A stretch of 64,000 nt of DNA, taken from IMG/VR virus record IMGVR_UViG_3300030116_003118, positions 1 through 64,000 of that record; one strand, written 5' to 3'. The notes under the pieces are model-generated. The model saw nothing but the letters and a program-made list of their open reading frames with translations, was not told the DNA's origin and did not search any database. How positions within the stretch are numbered: the first letter of the stretch is position 1; each line of letters opens with the position of its first letter. A program made the translations under genes and the position numbers. Shown here in pieces: positions 19,428-43,825 of this stretch. Source of the stretch: a virus.

Positions 19428-19672
19428 TAACCACCTTCCAATTTTGCTACCATTTCATTGATATCTTTCCAATCCATCTTGGCAATATCATCAACGCTAG
19501 TAGTTCCACTACCCATTGTGGGTGTTGGTGTATTTGTGACAACTAAACCTGACTTCATCAGTATGTTGTCATCATTGTAAACAGTTTTTTCTAACTTGCT
19601 TACCTTATCAACTAACTCCTTCAACAGAAGAAGCATTTCATTGTCTGCACTTTCGTCACTCATCTTTCTCAT
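19424..19672 (-). CDS. Small scaffold-like protein
   Basis: C-terminus 'KMDWKDINEMV' resembles the scaffold C-terminus 'EMDWGEIHNFI'. Confidence 0.5.
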   Translation of the reverse strand: MRKMSDESADNEMLLLLKELVDKVSKLEKTVYNDDNILMKSGLVVTNTPTPTMGSGTTSVDDIAKMDWKDINEMVAKLEGGY

Positions 19673-19991
19673 CTCCTAAATCTCCTTTGCTCTTTGGATA
19701 AATCATCCCTCGCATTTGGCGATATAGAATCTCATAATCTTTTCTAAGTTCAGATGCAGCCGCTACAAGAGATATGTTTGTCTCTTCTATTTTCTCCATC
19801 TTTTTCTTATCAGACTTATTTACATTAAGAGATTTTATTTCATCCAATAAATCTCCTAACTTGGTAAAGTCTTGTCCCATATATTCTGTTGGCTGAACAG
19901 ATTGTAACAACTTCTTAATTTTCTTCTTTTGCTTTGGGTCAACCTTTGCCAACAATTCACTTTCTTCTTTTAAAATAACTTTTTCCCACAT
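19656..19991 (-). CDS. WxxΦΦK-tagged protein
   Basis: Begins MWEKVILKE. Confidence 0.6.
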   Translation of the reverse strand: MWEKVILKEESELLAKVDPKQKKKIKKLLQSVQPTEYMGQDFTKLGDLLDEIKSLNVNKSDKKKMEKIEETNISLVAAASELRKDYEILYRQMRGMIYPKSKGDLGDEKDE

Positions 19992-19994
19992 ATT

Positions 19995-21773
19995 TTATCT
20001 TCCTCCCATTCTCTCTAATAATTGTTTTATCTGAGGAATCCTATTAAACGCTAAAACTTCTAATCTGTATTGTTTTTGTAATTTATATAACCTTGCTATT
20101 CTTTCTTGGGATTTGAAATTGTCTATTAAATCATCCATTCTTTTCTCTAATTTGACCCGTCTTTCTCTAGTCATTTTATTATAGTACGGGTCTCCCCTTC
20201 CCGGATTAATTAATTTAAGTAATCTTCTATAATCCTGTGATTGTTTAAACCTATCAAACTCTTTATCTATTTTAGTATTTACATTTTGTAAGTTTGTTTC
20301 TGCCCCTTTCTTAGAATTGTTTTTAGTTTCTTCTTTTAGAGTTCTGAGGTGCATCATTAATTTTTCTTTGGTGTCTGGTTTTGTATCTCCACCTGCAAGG
20401 AAACTTTGTATTGGGTCAAGTTTTGCTCTTTGCTTTTTATCCTCTTCCCTAATTTGTGCAAATCTTTGTTCTTCCCATTCCTTCTCTTCTTTTGTTTTTG
20501 GACTTGCAGTAGCATCTCTTCTAAGTCTTTCTCTTTCTTCATCTTCTTGTATTTCCTGTAAGGCAATACCCTGTTTTGATTTGTAGTCTTTAATATTATT
20601 TTGAAGTCCTTCATAATGTTCTCTAAGGTCGGCAAGATATTCAAAATTAGTAACTGATTCCGCAACTCTTTTATCGCCGTTCTCATTAATAATTTGTTCT
20701 AATTTATCTATAGCAGACTTAGTATTCATAATTTTAGCATATTCTTTTTCTACTTCTTTAATAAGTTTGACTAAATAGTTTCCTGCATATTCTTGAAAGT
20801 CTTCTCCTTCTTTTTCTGACTCACTTTTAACATCCCAGTCCCTACGAATACTTGCAGCAATTTCATCGAGAGACCAATTTCTATCTCCATCAACATCTTC
20901 AATAAAGTCTTCAATTAAATCATAAAAGTCTGCATCTGCACTTGTGTTTGCATTTAAATTATTTACTAATTTGTTTAAATGTATTGCTGAGTTTTTATTA
21001 AATTTATATTCATCTGCGTTTAATGTCTTAATTAAAGAAGGTACAGTAGATTTATCTACTCTCTTTTGTTCAATTCTTTGTGCTACTCTTCTCAGTTTGT
21101 CTGCTCTAGTAATACTTCTATTAAATTCTGATTTTAAAAATCTTTCAAATTTTCTATATAAGTCTGTAACATTTCTTTTACCGTCTGAATCTACTCTAAC
21201 TAACTTCGACACAATTGCAGGATGAATCTTTTTCTTATCATTCCAGACAGATTCATTTAGACCCACTAAGAATTTTGATGTTATTATTTTTCTCTCCTTT
21301 AAATCAGATTTAGTTTTATCAGTTATCCTTTGGTCTTCTTCTAAATCTATCAAAACTTCATTAAGTGTTTTTTCTTGGAGACTCATTTTTCTTTCTACTT
21401 TGGTTGTTTTAGTATCTTGTAGAAATACATCAATAACTTTTAGTATGGTTTCTTTATCTTTCTCTTCAGCATATCTCATTATATTTTGTAAAGAAGATTT
21501 TATAAATTCAAATGAACTTACCTTCCAACCCTCAGGGCGTTGTCTATCTTTGAAAGAAGTCTTAAGTTGAGAACTAGTCCAAGTAATTTGAGGCTTTGGA
21601 TTTATTTCATCTTTGTTCCTCTCAATATACTTGGAGATAGTTCTTCTTATTGCATACTGAACTTCTTTTAAAGTTAAATCATTTTCTGCCAATTTTTTAG
21701 CATTATCTTTTTTTCTTAAAATTCTGTAAAGTTCCACTTCGGCGGTAACCTGTTTAAGTAACAGTTCCACCAT
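19995..21773 (-). CDS. Large charged coiled-coil hypothetical protein
   Basis: 592 aa, K/E-rich, in the head module. Confidence 0.6.
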   Translation of the reverse strand: MVELLLKQVTAEVELYRILRKKDNAKKLAENDLTLKEVQYAIRRTISKYIERNKDEINPKPQITWTSSQLKTSFKDRQRPEGWKVSSFEFIKSSLQNIMRYAEEKDKETILKVIDVFLQDTKTTKVERKMSLQEKTLNEVLIDLEEDQRITDKTKSDLKERKIITSKFLVGLNESVWNDKKKIHPAIVSKLVRVDSDGKRNVTDLYRKFERFLKSEFNRSITRADKLRRVAQRIEQKRVDKSTVPSLIKTLNADEYKFNKNSAIHLNKLVNNLNANTSADADFYDLIEDFIEDVDGDRNWSLDEIAASIRRDWDVKSESEKEGEDFQEYAGNYLVKLIKEVEKEYAKIMNTKSAIDKLEQIINENGDKRVAESVTNFEYLADLREHYEGLQNNIKDYKSKQGIALQEIQEDEERERLRRDATASPKTKEEKEWEEQRFAQIREEDKKQRAKLDPIQSFLAGGDTKPDTKEKLMMHLRTLKEETKNNSKKGAETNLQNVNTKIDKEFDRFKQSQDYRRLLKLINPGRGDPYYNKMTRERRVKLEKRMDDLIDNFKSQERIARLYKLQKQYRLEVLAFNRIPQIKQLLERMGGR

Positions 21774-21782
21774 TAAATCACC

Positions 21783-41956: not shown

Positions 41957-41967
41957 AATTTAGCACC

Positions 41968-42267
41968 TCATAGTTTTACCATGTTATTGTGACCATCCAT
42001 GCCACTGTCTTTATGCTCATCACACCATTGCGCTCCACATTCAGCACAAGCCCACGTTGCTTTATTTTTACAACCTCTGCCAAAAGGTTGCCAAGAGGAA
42101 CACGCATCTTTTGGGAAATCTGCAATGTTAAAATCTGCCATAGTGTCTTTACCAGTCCTACGCTGAAAACCCTTAAACTCCTTAGGTTTCTTTTCTGGTG
42201 TTTTTGGGTCAGGCTTTTTCCCCCCTCTATTCGGATTAAATACTTTAACGAGTTCTTCCCATGACAT
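41968..42267 (-). CDS. Tagged Zn-finger (B-box/HIT-like) protein
   Basis: MSWEELVKV; C...C.NKATWACAECGAQWCDEH, similar to 34032-34439. Confidence 0.6.
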   Translation of the reverse strand: MSWEELVKVFNPNRGGKKPDPKTPEKKPKEFKGFQRRTGKDTMADFNIADFPKDACSSWQPFGRGCKNKATWACAECGAQWCDEHKDSGMDGHNNMVKL

Positions 42268-42271
42268 AGGG

Positions 42272-43825
42272 TTACCTCCAATCCAGCATAGGAAGCAGTT
42301 TAGTCTTAAGGTCTGCGGGCAAGTTGGTATTGCTATAGAACAGATATCCTAATTTTAACACCATCTTGTCATTCTTGCGTATGCCCAAAGTATTAATCAA
42401 AACGTCACTAGAACTTGCCTGTGCCTTTTTCCACGCATAATATCTTACAATATAATATTGGTCATCTATTCTGGTTTCAACGGTTTTCTGCCTCCATTTG
42501 CGGGGCTTATCAAATTGAGTATCATATTTATTTTCTAAGTCTTCAATAACCATTAGTTCTCTTGGCCTGAGTTCTTTCTTCCATTTATCATAATCACCGA
42601 CTCTTTTATACCAGCCCTTCATATTGCCACTTAGAATCATATCTGCTCTTGAGACTACATAAGCCTCCCTTCCTGCACTTGGGTCTAATGTTCTTTCAGG
42701 TACATCTTCTGGAGATTTTGTTTTTGCTTTTTTACCACTCCATAAATCACCGTTTTCATCTAACGGCCCAAAGACATCTTTTTTACCAAAGGGTTCATTG
42801 GTGAGTTTTCTAAGTGCAATACAAGCAATTATCTCTGGAATATCATCTATAAATTTATAATTAGTAAAATACGGTTGAGCAATAGGATTTTCAAAATTAC
42901 TGCCGCTTTCAGTCAAACCTAACTGTCTTCTAACTTTAGGGTCATCCGCTTGCTTTTTTCTTTCTTCTTCAATTAAATTAAGAGCATCTTGCATTTTATC
43001 ATTAATGCCAAAAATGTTTATTCTAGAACCCATATCTTTTTTCATTTTATCCCAGTAATTTGACATTTCTTTTCTACACTTATCATCTCTTAATCCTTCT
43101 GTAGTATATGCTTCGTGAACATCTTCTATTTTGGTATCTGAAAACAATTGTGATTCAGGTTCATCTTCTCTTCCAAGACCGGGGCCAGCCGCAAGTGCTG
43201 TATTTAAATTACCTACCTGTTTACCCATTTTATTATAATACTGTAATAACCTACCTGTTAACCACTCGGCATATTTATCTAAATTTCCTTCTGGTGATTG
43301 AGCATGCATAAACATTTTTAACGCTAGAGAATATCTTATATTGTAATAATCCTGACTATCATTTAATTGACCCTGACTTTGAGACCTATCTCGCTCAGTA
43401 TCCCTAAAGAACCATCCATAATGTAGCCTATTAGCAAACTGATGGAAAAAGGAACTTACACTTGGATGTTCTATATCTCCCTCCATTTCATTATCTTTCA
43501 TTATCTCAATTAAATCTCTAACATCCATAAAACTATTAGGAAGTACATAATCACCCTGCCTCTCTAATATAAGATTTAATACCTTTGTCTTCCATTCGGA
43601 ATTAAGTTGGTCGGTGTTTCTACCACGAAGAAAAATCGAAGCATCAAAATACGGTCTTTGCAAATAACTAAAAGGAGAGTAATTAAAAATTCTTTGTCCT
43701 CTTAATATCTGAGATAATGCTTCTACTGATGATGCATAATATTGGCTTACATTAGAAGGAATATATATTTTCTTTATCTCATCTTTCTCATCAGTAGGAA
43801 TTCTTGCTATTTCTCTCCAACTCAT
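42272..43825 (-). CDS. Large tagged hypothetical protein
   Basis: 517 aa; MSWREIARI (R in place of K). Confidence 0.6.
   Translation of the reverse strand: MSWREIARIPTDEKDEIKKIYIPSNVSQYYASSVEALSQILRGQRIFNYSPFSYLQRPYFDASIFLRGRNTDQLNSEWKTKVLNLILERQGDYVLPNSFMDVRDLIEIMKDNEMEGDIEHPSVSSFFHQFANRLHYGWFFRDTERDRSQSQGQLNDSQDYYNIRYSLALKMFMHAQSPEGNLDKYAEWLTGRLLQYYNKMGKQVGNLNTALAAGPGLGREDEPESQLFSDTKIEDVHEAYTTEGLRDDKCRKEMSNYWDKMKKDMGSRINIFGINDKMQDALNLIEEERKKQADDPKVRRQLGLTESGSNFENPIAQPYFTNYKFIDDIPEIIACIALRKLTNEPFGKKDVFGPLDENGDLWSGKKAKTKSPEDVPERTLDPSAGREAYVVSRADMILSGNMKGWYKRVGDYDKWKKELRPRELMVIEDLENKYDTQFDKPRKWRQKTVETRIDDQYYIVRYYAWKKAQASSSDVLINTLGIRKNDKMVLKLGYLFYSNTNLPADLKTKLLPMLDWR

What the first reader, a model, noticed from the sequence alone, without database searches (positions are those of the whole stretch)
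19656..43825. About 25 unrelated late proteins share an N-terminal M-x-W-x-x-Φ-Φ-K tag: putative capsid-targeting signal for a large cargo set
Seen: MWEKVILK, MNWQQTIK, MNWFDLLK, MKWFDIVK, MSWFEITK, MTWETVLK, LWEKVLK, DWKDIVK, MSWKDKLLK, MSWQDMLK, MNWEDIVK, AWFELAK, MNWDDIFK, MKWWNVIK, MWFKIFK, MMWESLLK, MDWNKILK, MTWFELIK, AWFDNLCK, MTWEEVIK, MSWFEVVK, MWFEVVK, MGWEDIVK, MSWEELVK, MSWREIAR. Downstream sequences (52-673 aa) are mostly unrelated and the DNA under the tag varies, so conservation is at protein level. The tag is absent from portal, terminase, tail and right-arm genes. Established analog: the ~10-aa capsid targeting sequence of T4 internal proteins, removed by the prohead protease. 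ΦΦK sites also occur at plausible processing points of MCP (ALLK|A) and protease (TLLK|S, SILK|S, DILK|E). Inference: a modular 'tag + cargo' packaging system delivering many effectors on infection. The conserved Lys could alternatively be an acceptor for the viral Ubl or GNAT.
Basis: partly seen in the sequence, partly recalled or inferred. Interest (0 to 1): 0.85.

Follow-up and report, generated by a model that had tools for sequence, protein, structure and literature searches.

The report
Shared entry tag on viral proteins
An ocean virus of archaea puts the same eight-residue label on the front of about 25 otherwise unrelated proteins, and the label copies the tail end of the virus's own shell-building scaffold, so it most likely serves as a ticket into the newly forming virus shell.

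Summary
All 25 listed minus-strand genes between 19656 and 43825 start with M-x-W-x-x-hyd-hyd-K (hyd = hydrophobic residue).

The conservation is at protein level. All six Leu codons occur and Lys is AAA or AAG. Only residue 2 shows a nucleotide bias, A at +4.

The protein bodies are unrelated. Families with tagged members are hypervariable: 83 of 103 occur in one of nine genomes.

The tag is clade-wide in magrovirus-like contigs and strand-specific: 401 tags on the portal strand against 14 on the other. In nine genomes, 130 N-terminal tags were seen against about 1 expected.

New here: the prohead protease-scaffold ends with M-S-W-x-[DE]-I-H-N in 65 of 68 homologues. A small ~80-aa protein and a conserved 389-aa protein carry the motif at their C-termini. 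A distant clade without tags keeps the scaffold motif in 10 of 10 proteins.

So the tag most likely mimics the scaffold's docking peptide and brings proteins into the procapsid. Cleavage after the Lys and delivery into the host are inferred, not shown. No structure prediction or proteomics could be run.

Another window of this scan noted the same stretch before (e1-6117127).

I rate it a new variant of a known kind, the capsid-targeting sequences of T4 and P1.

The parts
42272..43825 (-). tagged gene, 517 aa, tag MSWREIAR (43802-43825)
   Evidence: no Pfam/PHROG/NCBIfam hit
41968..42267 (-). tagged gene, 99 aa, tag MSWEELVK
   Evidence: weak body similarity to 34032-34439 (E=6e-6)
41642..41956 (-). 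tagged gene, 104 aa, tag MGWEDIVK
41457..41642 (-). tagged gene, 61 aa, tag MWFEVVK, then a Lys/Arg-rich linker; body matches phrog_727
41197..41460 (-). tagged gene, 87 aa, tag MSWFEVVK
40832..41200 (-). tagged gene, 122 aa, tag MTWEEVIK
40555..40830 (-). tagged gene, 91 aa, tag MDAWFDNLCK; body is DUF5754 (PF19058, 31.6 bits, cut-off 27.4)
40191..40550 (-). tagged gene, 119 aa, tag MTWFELIK
39460..40188 (-). tagged gene, 242 aa, tag MDWNKILK
38795..39460 (-). tagged gene, 221 aa, tag MWESLLK (or MMWESLLK from 39463)
38584..38793 (-). tagged gene, 69 aa, tag MWFKIFK
38342..38587 (-). tagged gene, 81 aa, tag MKWWNVIK
37173..38342 (-). conserved 389-aa protein with no N-terminal tag, lying among the tagged genes; its extreme C-terminus SWKSVLAW (37176-37199) is tag-like
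   Evidence: C-terminal W-x-x-hyd-hyd in 9 of 9 full genomes; this W is one of 13 invariant columns
36209..36523 (-). tagged gene, 104 aa, tag MNWDDIFK
35125..36204 (-). tagged gene, 359 aa, tag MNATAAWFELAK (W at residue 7)
34808..35128 (-). tagged gene, 106 aa, tag MNWEDIVK
34620..34805 (-). tagged gene, 61 aa, tag MSWQDMLK
34432..34608 (-). tagged gene, 58 aa, tag MSWKDKLLK (one residue longer)
34032..34439 (-). tagged gene, 135 aa, tag MNDWKDIVK
33174..34022 (-). tagged gene, 282 aa, tag MDELWEKVLK
31148..33169 (-). tagged gene, 673 aa, tag MTWETVLK
28180..28602 (-). tagged gene, 140 aa, tag MSWFEITK
28025..28183 (-). tagged gene, 52 aa, tag MKWFDIVK
27080..27679 (-). tagged gene, 199 aa, TTG start, tag (M)NWFDLLK; weakly GNAT-like; directly upstream of the large terminase
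   Evidence: (PF00583, E=0.0046, below cut-off)
21989..22657 (-). tagged gene, 222 aa, tag MNWQQTIK; directly downstream of the portal gene
19656..19991 (-). tagged gene, 111 aa, tag MWEKVILK; the best-conserved tagged family (8 of 9 genomes)
19424..19672 (-). 82-aa protein ending with the scaffold-type motif MDWKDINEM (19451-19477)
   Evidence: same motif on a small ORF in 8 of 9 genomes and in 50 of 80 portal loci
15403..16650 (-). prohead protease (S78) fused to an acidic/coiled-coil scaffold-like part. C-terminal motif MDWGEIHNF (15424-15450). N-terminal W-less tag-like SEATLLK (16627-16650) and SILK (16594-16605)
   Evidence: Pfam PF04586, 40.6 bits, cut-off 21; PHROG head maturation protease; C-terminal motif in 65 of 68 homologues
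13983..15392 (-). major capsid protein; conserved N-terminal helix-like segment followed by NALLK (15309-15323), a candidate maturation site
   Evidence: Pfam SU10_MCP and phrog_24667. ALLK kept in 41 of 41 close relatives. Basic residue at this column in 70 of 78 distant family members
22654..24300 (-). portal protein (context, untagged)
25644..27080 (-). large terminase subunit (context, untagged)

Best explanation
The N-terminal M-(S/T/N)-W-x-(D/E)-(I/V)-(L/I/V)-K peptide is a docking tag that copies the conserved C-terminal peptide of the virus's own prohead protease-scaffold.

During head assembly the scaffold peptide is expected to bind a site inside the growing shell. The likeliest site is the N-terminal helix region of the major capsid protein; the scaffold core or the portal are less likely. 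Any protein that carries the same peptide at a free end is then co-assembled into the procapsid.

The N-terminal copies add a feature the scaffold copy lacks: a hydrophobic pair followed by Lys. It resembles the L-L-K and I-L-K sites at the N-termini of the capsid protein and of the protease. It is probably where the S78 prohead protease cuts the tag off, leaving the cargo free inside the head.

The cargo is a large, fast-changing set of small proteins, many of them basic, that would travel in the virion and could enter the host with the DNA.

Shown:
- the tag exists;
- it is selected at protein level;
- it is clade-wide and terminus-specific;
- the cargo is unrelated and variable;
- the same motif is on the protease-scaffold.

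Inferred: binding inside the procapsid, cleavage after Lys, and delivery to the host.
For: 1. Twenty-five unrelated proteins share the tag.

2. Selection is on the peptide. In 344 distinct tags, the second hydrophobic position uses all six Leu codons plus Ile and Val codons, and Lys is AAA 203 / AAG 115.

3. In 681 distinct M-(x)-W-x-x-hyd-hyd ORF starts, the next residue is K in 586 and R in 25.

4. The motif is terminus-specific. M-x-W-x-[polar]-[ILVT] occurs 93 times at residue 1, 17 times within the last 25 residues and 3 times internally, in 268,379 residues of nine genomes.

5. The C-terminal copies sit on head-assembly proteins:
- the protease-scaffold, 65 of 68 homologues;
- a small ORF next to it, in 50 of 80 loci, with only 4 internal matches in 415,662 positions;
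- the 389-aa core protein, 9 of 9 genomes.

6. The scaffold motif is older than the tags. Ten of 10 protease-scaffolds of a distant clade without tags keep [ML]-[SPT]-[WF]-x-x-[IV] near the C-terminus.

7. In nine genomes all tagged genes lie on the structural strand, interleaved with terminase and portal and mostly upstream of protease and capsid protein.

8. The cargo is hypervariable: 83 of 103 families with a tagged member occur in one genome, whereas 38 untagged families occur in all nine.

9. Precedents, read as passages:
- The T4 CTS is 10 residues long. Its targeting determinants are residues 4 and 7 and its processing determinants are residues 8 and 10. It marks a diverse set of internal proteins (PMC9026906; PMC3012670; PMC8442874).
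- The N-terminal 30 residues of P1 DarB target a reporter to the capsid (PMC9024508).
- The 80alpha scaffold and SaPI1 CpmB share a C-terminal motif and bind the same site on the capsid protein (PMC6893505).
- Scaffold termini contact an N-arm helix inside procapsids (PMC12749128).

10. The capsid protein keeps hyd-x-K/R about 25-35 residues from its N-terminus across a family at 26-62% identity (70 of 78 basic). The one solved relative aligns only from after that point (6j3q_A).
Against: - No direct evidence that any tagged protein is in virions or is cleaved. No proteomic data were reachable.
- Conserved hyd-hyd-K sites are not specific. Close relatives also keep such sites in terminase, portal and ligase, so the sites in the capsid protein and protease prove little by themselves.
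- The specificity of this S78 protease is unknown. Cleavage after Lys in HK97 is my recollection, not a call.
- Up to 25 different cargo proteins (4,315 aa in all) is a lot for a head holding about 84-100 kb of DNA.
- Some tagged proteins look like enzymes (GNAT-like) that need not be virion proteins.
- Only 40% of tagged proteins are basic, against 21% of the rest.
- The E1/Ubl system co-occurs with the tag in 10 of 10 full contigs, so a link to it is not excluded.
- The host proteome could not be scanned for the tag.
Confidence: 0.55

Rival explanations
1. The W-peptide is a docking motif for a shared partner that is not the capsid interior. Candidates are a virus-encoded hub or chaperone (such as the conserved 850-aa or 389-aa proteins), the portal or terminase complex, or an assembly site in the cell. 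Tagged proteins would then be assembly or host-takeover factors gathered at one place, not packaged cargo.
For: The motif occurs at either terminus and on proteins of several kinds: protease-scaffold, an 80-aa protein, the 389-aa protein, and GNATs in G003-G005. Two conserved untagged proteins of unknown function (850 aa, 389 aa) lie among the tagged genes in all nine genomes.
Against: The best-understood carrier of the motif is a prohead protease-scaffold, and such proteins act inside procapsids. The conserved Lys, found only on the N-terminal copies, is not explained by plain docking.
Confidence: 0.2
2. The tag is a recognition or acceptor site for a virus-encoded modifier. The conserved Lys would be conjugated by the Ubl/E1/JAB system of the right arm or acetylated by the GNAT next to the terminase. 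Alternatively, W-x-x-hyd binds the Ubl in the way Atg8-interacting motifs do (that resemblance is recalled, not tested).
For: A ThiF-type E1 (61395-61985; PF00899, 61 bits) is present in 10 of 10 tag-bearing full contigs. It was not found in 3 contigs of the clade without tags. GNAT genes lie next to the terminase gene in several genomes and themselves carry the motif. Lys is kept in 586 of 681 tags.
Against: The scaffold C-terminal motif lacks the Lys (H-N instead). It also exists in the clade where no E1 was found, though those contigs are only 26-78% complete. The strict placement at chain ends is not expected of a conjugation or Atg8-type motif. All ten contigs are one clade, so the co-occurrence is not independent evidence.
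Confidence: 0.1
3. The motif is a nucleotide-level or translation-level signal (start-stop overlap, ribosome loading) and the peptide is a by-product.
For: Residue 2 is shaped by the DNA. Ser before W is AGT in 158 tags against TCA in 6, although AGT makes up 4,506 of 18,001 Ser codons in gene bodies. A at +4 is seen in 101 of 135 tagged genes against 525 of 1,058 other ORFs. ATGA overlaps a long upstream ORF in 47 of 135.
Against: From W onward the codons vary freely while the residues are kept. W has one codon and is kept in every tag. The same peptide occurs at C-termini, where no start codon is involved.
Confidence: 0.03
4. The shared N-termini are remnants of one duplicated gene family whose bodies diverged beyond recognition.
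For: Some genomes hold real paralogue arrays with longer shared leaders (L112, L100, L004).
Against: The bodies of the 25 window proteins range from 52 to 673 aa and show no mutual similarity except one weak pair. One cargo domain (DUF5754) occurs elsewhere with a different leader. The motif also sits at C-termini of unrelated proteins.
Confidence: 0.02

Closest known systems
Capsid targeting sequence (CTS) of phage T4 internal proteins (IPI-III and their variable counterparts in T-even phages)
   Same: Both are short N-terminal peptides shared by otherwise diverse, often basic, fast-evolving proteins. The layout is alike: an aromatic residue and a hydrophobic residue three positions later, followed by a processing site. 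In T4, targeting depends on residues 4 and 7 and processing on residues 8 and 10 (PMC9026906, passages; PMC8442874, passage).
   Different: There is no sequence homology. The T4 protease differs from the S78 (HK97-type) protease found here, and by my recollection, not a call, T4 cuts after Glu. The host is an archaeon. The number of tagged genes is far larger, 6-25 per genome. Here the tag matches the C-terminus of the protease-scaffold, which the T4 passages I read do not mention. Packaging and cleavage are proven in T4 and unproven here.
80alpha scaffolding protein / SaPI1 CpmB shared C-terminal motif
   Same: A short conserved terminal motif is shared by the scaffold and a second small protein. 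In 80alpha both bind the same site on the capsid protein (PMC6893505, passage). The pair of protease-scaffold and 82-aa protein here looks like this.
   Different: The motif is different (RIIK there). There the second protein belongs to a satellite and changes capsid size. Here it is encoded by the virus itself, and the motif has also spread to N-termini of many accessory proteins.
P1 DarB N-terminal capsid localisation signal and the Dar antirestriction proteins
   Same: An N-terminal stretch is sufficient to bring a protein into an HK97-type head with an HK97-like protease (PMC9024508, abstract and passages).
   Different: In P1 the signal is about 30 residues long. The passages I read do not describe it as shared among many proteins.
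Propeptide-bearing head and ejection proteins of giant phages (SPN3US, phiKZ-like)
   Same: Many different proteins are packaged in the head and processed by the prohead protease (PMC7411985 and PMC10052503, search-listing abstracts only).
   Different: By my recollection the propeptides there are longer and only the cleavage motif is shared, with no compact common N-terminal tag.
Encapsulin cargo-loading peptides
   Same: Short terminal peptides dock cargo onto the inner face of an HK97-fold shell (recalled, no call).
   Different: Encapsulins are not viruses, involve no protease step and use different motifs. Nothing was tested here.

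Membership tests
T4-type capsid targeting sequence system | A short N-terminal peptide shared by otherwise unrelated proteins of one virus | tested here: met
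   25 proteins with unrelated bodies; 681 distinct tagged ORF starts in related loci
T4-type capsid targeting sequence system | The peptide is sufficient to bring a foreign protein into the head | not testable with these tools
T4-type capsid targeting sequence system | The peptide is removed by the prohead protease at a fixed site | tested here: inconclusive
   Lys follows the hydrophobic pair in 586 of 681 tags. Similar sites are conserved in the capsid protein and protease. Such sites are also conserved in other proteins. No cleavage data exist.
T4-type capsid targeting sequence system | Homology to the T4 CTS and use of a T4 gp21-type protease | tested here: not met
   The protease matches Pfam Peptidase_S78 (HK97 type). 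The tag consensus differs from the T4 CTS printed in PMC8442874.
T4-type capsid targeting sequence system | Cargo genes vary strongly between related viruses | tested here: met
   83 of 103 families with a tagged member are found in one of nine genomes; 38 untagged families are in all nine
Scaffold terminal motif shared with a second protein (80alpha SP / CpmB type) | The same short motif at the C-terminus of the scaffold and of another small protein | tested here: met
   Protease-scaffold 65 of 68; small ORF in 50 of 80 loci and 8 of 9 genomes
Scaffold terminal motif shared with a second protein (80alpha SP / CpmB type) | Both bind the same site on the capsid protein | not testable with these tools
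   Needs complex modelling or cryo-EM
Peptidase S78 prohead protease | Match to the family model above the curated cut-off | tested here: met
   PF04586, 40.6 bits against cut-off 21, residues 25-177; PHROG head maturation protease, E=1.4e-18. Catalytic residues were not checked one by one.
Magroviruses (tailed viruses assigned to Marine Group II archaea) | About 100-kb genome with a structural module holding an extra ATP-dependent ligase and a nuclease insert, and an archaeal-type replication module | tested here: met
Ligase domain in 16690-19200. A second ligase-family ORF at 65173-66717. Also found: RFC-like, split PolB, RNR and ThiF, and tRNA-Leu. These fit the description in PMC5434244 (passages).
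Ubl-interacting or Ubl-acceptor motif | Motif acts with a Ubl/E1 system and need not lie at a chain end | tested here: inconclusive
   E1 co-occurs in 10 of 10. However, the motif is almost only terminal and the scaffold copy exists where no E1 was found.

The most novel reading that the evidence does not exclude
Magroviruses, among the most abundant archaeal viruses of the surface ocean, run a general 'address label' system. Any gene that acquires an eight-residue mimic of the scaffold's capsid-docking peptide has its product loaded into the head. It is then trimmed by the prohead protease and injected with the DNA. This would give each virus a private, rapidly exchangeable arsenal of 6-25 pre-made effector proteins. 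It would be the largest tagged cargo set known for a virus of this size and the first for an archaeal virus.
Probability: 0.35. Interest if true: 0.9.

Novelty: new variant of a known kind. Interest (0 to 1): 0.8.

Why it matters
Most magrovirus genes have no known function (PMC5434244, passage). This tag sorts out up to a fifth of the genes of each genome as one functional class and gives a simple sequence rule to find them in metagenomes.

If the tag is a packaging label, it points to the proteins these viruses bring into their uncultured hosts. It gives a testable model of head assembly for archaeal tailed viruses. It also offers a short peptide that could load foreign proteins into an HK97-type shell.

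The match between the tag and the scaffold's own end suggests how such labels arise: by copying the scaffold's docking peptide.

I found no mention of the motif in the papers I checked:
- Three magrovirus papers, searched by terms only. The supplements of these papers were closed and may hold annotation tables that I could not see.
- A library search for 'archaeal virus' + 'N-terminal' + 'capsid targeting', which gave 0 papers.

Tried and rejected
- **Paralogy.** Rejected by all-against-all BLASTP of the tag-less bodies.
- **Nucleotide-level signal.** Rejected for residues 3-8 by codon counts. Kept only for residue 2.
- **Function of cargo.** Pfam, PHROGs and NCBIfam gave almost nothing. The ESM Atlas gave no usable hit for the 673-aa and 517-aa proteins. 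A PDB profile search with the 389-aa family gave nothing.
- **DUF5754 leader.** I first thought the DUF5754 homologues with another leader came from T4-like phages, which would have tied this cargo to known internal proteins. The phage collection did not bear this out: there were only partial hits in Flavobacterium and Roseobacter phages. Their origin stays unknown.
- **Conserved hyd-hyd-K sites as cleavage evidence.** Judged weak, because close relatives also keep such sites in terminase, portal and ligase.
- **Host test.** The single genome-contig scan, spent on the RFC-like protein to get a host handle, found only one contig filed under a Maricaulis MAG. So I could not ask whether host proteins carry the tag.
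- **Expression.** No RNA holder was listed.
- **Ubl link.** E1 is present in 10 of 10 tag-bearing contigs and was not found in 3 incomplete contigs without tags. This cannot separate the hypotheses.
- **GNAT orthology.** Similarity between the window's 27080-27679 and the GNATs of G005 and G007 is only weak (E=0.16 and 0.043).
- **Counting error.** In notebook entry 2 I wrote 77 of 80; the count is 75 of 80.

Full report
**What the window is**

The window is the first 64,000 bases of an 84,494-base virus record. Two gene arms diverge from about 44-49 kb.

The minus-strand arm holds the structural genes:
- large terminase, 25644-27080;
- portal, 22654-24300;
- an 836-aa protein with an ATP-dependent ligase domain, 16690-19200;
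- an S78 prohead protease with a long acidic/coiled-coil extension, 15403-16650;
- an SU10-type major capsid protein, 13983-15392;
- tail genes below that.

The plus-strand arm holds ribonucleotide reductase, a ThiF-type E1, split family-B polymerase, an RFC-like protein and a second ligase. There is a tRNA-Leu.

This content fits the description of magroviruses, especially group B, in Philosof et al. 2017 (PMC5434244, passages). That description includes two ligases, one inside the structural module, a nuclease insert, RNR and tRNA-Leu. No tool named the contigs.

**The observation**

- Nineteen have W at residue 2 or 3; six have it at residues 4-7.
- One tag ends in Arg; one gene starts with TTG.
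- Every tagged gene has a GGAGG/GGTG-type ribosome-binding site.
- No gene of the plus arm or of the tail region carries the tag.
- The 25 bodies (52-673 aa, 4,315 aa in all) are unrelated. All-against-all BLASTP without the tags gave one pair at E=6e-6 and one at 0.002.

**Protein level or DNA level**

I collected 344 distinct tags from 80 related loci and this genome.
- The consensus is M-S-W-[FEQK]-[DENS]-[IVT]-[LIV]-K, with W at residue 3 in 298 of 344.
- The second hydrophobic position uses all six Leu codons plus Ile and Val codons. Lys is AAA 203 / AAG 115.
- From W onward, therefore, selection acts on the peptide.

Residue 2 is different.
- Ser there is AGT 158 times and TCA 6 times, although AGT is 4,506 of 18,001 Ser codons in gene bodies.
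- A stands at +4 in 101 of 135 tagged genes against 525 of 1,058 other ORFs.
- ATGA overlaps the stop of a long upstream ORF in 47 of 135.

So the 'x' of M-x-W is partly set by the start-stop overlap, or by a preference for A after the start codon.

When Lys was not required in the search, 681 distinct M-(x)-W-x-x-hyd-hyd ORF starts were found. The next residue was K in 586 and R in 25.

**Spread**

- The portal protein found 180 relatives in IMG/VR. The best 80 loci (70-89% identity) were kept.
- These loci (1,430,220 bases) hold 401 N-terminal tags on the portal strand and 14 on the other. The regex also matched 72 internal sites on the portal strand and none on the other.
- Of the 80 pattern-scan loci listed's table, 75 hold at least one tag by my caller, nearly always on one strand. 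One locus has 21 tags in 14 kb.
- Eight full relatives were fetched. Across the nine genomes (the eight plus this one), a strict caller finds 6-23 tags per genome. It finds 19 in this genome, where the looser rule gives 25.
- All but two tags lie on the structural strand. They are interleaved with a 389-aa gene, an 850-aa gene, terminase and portal, and mostly upstream of ligase, protease and capsid protein.
- 130 cores lie at the N-terminus against 0.99 expected from the internal rate.
- Families with a tagged member are highly variable: 83 of 103 occur in only one of the nine genomes. Thirty-eight untagged families occur in all nine.
- Contigs of a more distant clade (capsid protein about 45% identical, GC 46-48%) show no W tag in the two loci I listed.

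**The main new result: the same motif at C-termini of head-assembly proteins**

- *Protease-scaffold.* In the window it ends in a stretch that holds M-D-W-G-E-I-H-N-F (15424-15450). Of 68 homologues that reach the C-terminus, 65 hold W-x-[DE]-[ILVM]-[HNKQ] in their last 22 residues. Most read M-S-W-x-D-I-H-N. This equals the tag consensus in its first six places, including the M-S, which here is not a start codon.
- *Small protein.* A protein next to it (19424-19672, 82 aa) ends with M-D-W-K-D-I-N-E-M. A small ORF with this ending is present in 8 of 9 genomes and in 50 of 80 portal loci. The same pattern occurs only 4 times in 415,662 internal positions.
- *389-aa protein.* This conserved, N-terminally untagged protein amid the tagged genes ends with S-W-x-x-hyd-hyd at its very C-terminus in 9 of 9 genomes. 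That W is one of only 13 invariant columns of the family.
- *GNATs.* In three genomes a GNAT acetyltransferase upstream of the terminase carries W-x-x-hyd-hyd-K near its C-terminus. The window's gene at that place is weakly GNAT-like and carries the tag at its N-terminus.
- *Position overall.* M-x-W-x-[polar]-[ILVT] occurs 93 times at residue 1, 17 times in the last 25 residues and 3 times elsewhere, in 268,379 residues.
- *Distant clade.* The clade without tags keeps [ML]-[SPT]-[WF]-x-x-[IV] near the C-terminus of its protease-scaffold in 10 of 10 proteins. The scaffold motif is therefore older than the N-terminal tags.

**How it most likely works**

Scaffolding proteins bind the capsid protein through a terminal segment that contacts an N-arm helix inside the procapsid (PMC12749128, passage). 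In 80alpha, the scaffold and the satellite protein CpmB share a C-terminal motif and use the same site on the capsid protein (PMC6893505, passage).

By analogy, the conserved C-terminal W-peptide of the magrovirus protease-scaffold is its docking element. The N-terminal tags are copies of it, which let any protein ride into the procapsid.

This is the logic of the T4 capsid targeting sequence (PMC9026906, passages; PMC3012670; PMC8442874):
- it has ten residues;
- targeting depends on residues 4 and 7, an aromatic and a hydrophobic residue three places apart, as W and the first hydrophobic residue are here;
- processing depends on residues 8 and 10;
- it marks a diverse, fast-changing set of internal proteins.

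The N-terminal copies differ from the scaffold copy in having hyd-hyd-K instead of I-H-N. Similar sites occur elsewhere:
- The capsid protein has A-L-L-K at residues 25-28, kept in 41 of 41 close relatives.
- A basic residue stands at that column in 70 of 78 members of the wider family at 26-62% identity.
- The single solved relative aligns only from after this point (6j3q_A).
- The protease begins with a W-less copy of the tag, M-S-E-A-x-L-L-K, in many relatives. It is followed by the invariant I-L-K just before the catalytic domain.

I therefore think the Lys marks the cut made by the S78 protease. That HK97's protease cuts after a Lys is my recollection. The paper on its encapsidation (Duda et al. 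2013) was not held.

This step is weak. Conserved hyd-hyd-K sites are also found in terminase, portal and ligase of close relatives, and no cleavage data exist.

**What the cargo is**

Almost nothing is known about the cargo.
- One cargo is a DUF5754 domain.
- One matches phrog_727.
- Several have Cys-rich or Lys-rich stretches.
- 40% of tagged proteins have pI above 9, against 21% of other ORFs.
- Among 120 listed homologues of the DUF5754 protein, the closest ones carry the W tag. The more distant ones, from contigs of up to 215 kb of unknown origin, carry a different leader (M-N-F-D-x-L-V-x-x-L-L-E-E type) in front of the same domain. This shows that leader and cargo are separate modules.

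**Rivals**

- *Docking to a non-capsid partner.* This cannot be excluded.
- *Link to the virus's Ubl/E1/JAB genes or to the GNAT.* This is possible. E1 is in 10 of 10 tag-bearing full contigs and was not found in 3 contigs of the clade without tags (these are 26-78% complete). Against it, the scaffold motif lacks the Lys, exists in that E1-less clade, and is almost only terminal.
- *Translation coupling.* This explains residue 2 only.
- *Paralogy.* This is excluded for the window's genes.

**Limits**

- No RNA run was listed.
- The host proteome could not be scanned.
- Supplementary files of papers were closed.
- Term searches ('find') in three magrovirus papers found no mention of such a motif. 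A library search for archaeal virus + N-terminal + capsid targeting gave 0 papers.

**Verdict**

Cleavage and delivery remain to be shown. I rate it a new variant of a known kind (capsid targeting sequences), with interest 0.8.

Noticed in passing
window 19424-19672 (-): An 82-aa protein has the same C-terminal M-D-W-x-D-I-N/H motif as the protease-scaffold. It is conserved in 8 of 9 genomes and 50 of 80 loci. It may be a second small scaffold-like protein, comparable to CpmB next to the 80alpha scaffold.
   Followed up: partly
window 37173-38342 (-): A conserved 389-aa protein of unknown function lies amid the tagged genes. Its extreme C-terminus is tag-like (S-W-x-x-hyd-hyd) in 9 of 9 genomes. 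It has no Pfam, PHROG, NCBIfam or PDB match.
   Followed up: partly
L220:4587-5138, L230:11435-11935, L240:13183-14022: GNAT acetyltransferases lie just upstream of the large terminase in related genomes. Those of G003, G004 and G005 carry W-x-x-hyd-hyd-K near the C-terminus. In G007 the motif lies inside a longer ORF, between the GNAT domain and a further 110 residues.
   Followed up: partly
P0175-P0270 (homologues of window 40555-40830): DUF5754 homologues from contigs of 125-215 kb carry a different conserved N-terminal leader (M-N-F-D-x-L-V-x-x-L-L-E-E type) in front of the same basic domain. This may be a second, unrelated leader system in another virus group. Their origin was not determined.
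   Followed up: partly
L112:1091-7969, L100 (minus strand, 6860-9707 of the reverse complement), L004:2658-5300: These are tandem arrays of paralogues that share the tag plus a longer leader (tag followed by N-I-Q-I-S-S-Q-R-T-S-S-K-D-Y-V-x-P-D-E, or by N-K-L-L-x-K-P).
   Followed up: no
window 16690-19200 (-) and G000 65173-66717 (+): Two ATP-dependent DNA ligase genes are present. One is an 836-aa protein inside the head module, between portal and protease, as Philosof et al. 2017 reported for magrovirus groups A and B. Its role in the head module is unexplained.
   Followed up: no
L082 (NZMJ01000151.1, filed as a Maricaulis sp. MAG): A 24-kb contig filed under a bacterial MAG encodes an RFC-like protein 65% identical to the virus's. 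It is probably a mis-binned magrovirus fragment.
   Followed up: no
L104 (IMGVR_UViG_3300021958_000021, 184,733 bases): A contig about twice the usual magrovirus length has the same tagged-gene/terminase layout. It could be a concatemer or assembly duplication.
   Followed up: no
window 61982-62707 (+): A 241-aa protein between the E1 and the JAB-like gene starts with M-S-W-K-W-T-K. This is a near miss to the tag on the other arm. It has no Pfam match.
   Followed up: no
window 24304-25629 (-): A 441-aa ORF lies between terminase and portal, with only a weak PHROG HNH-endonuclease hit. It sits at the place where Philosof et al. describe a homing-endonuclease insert.
   Followed up: no
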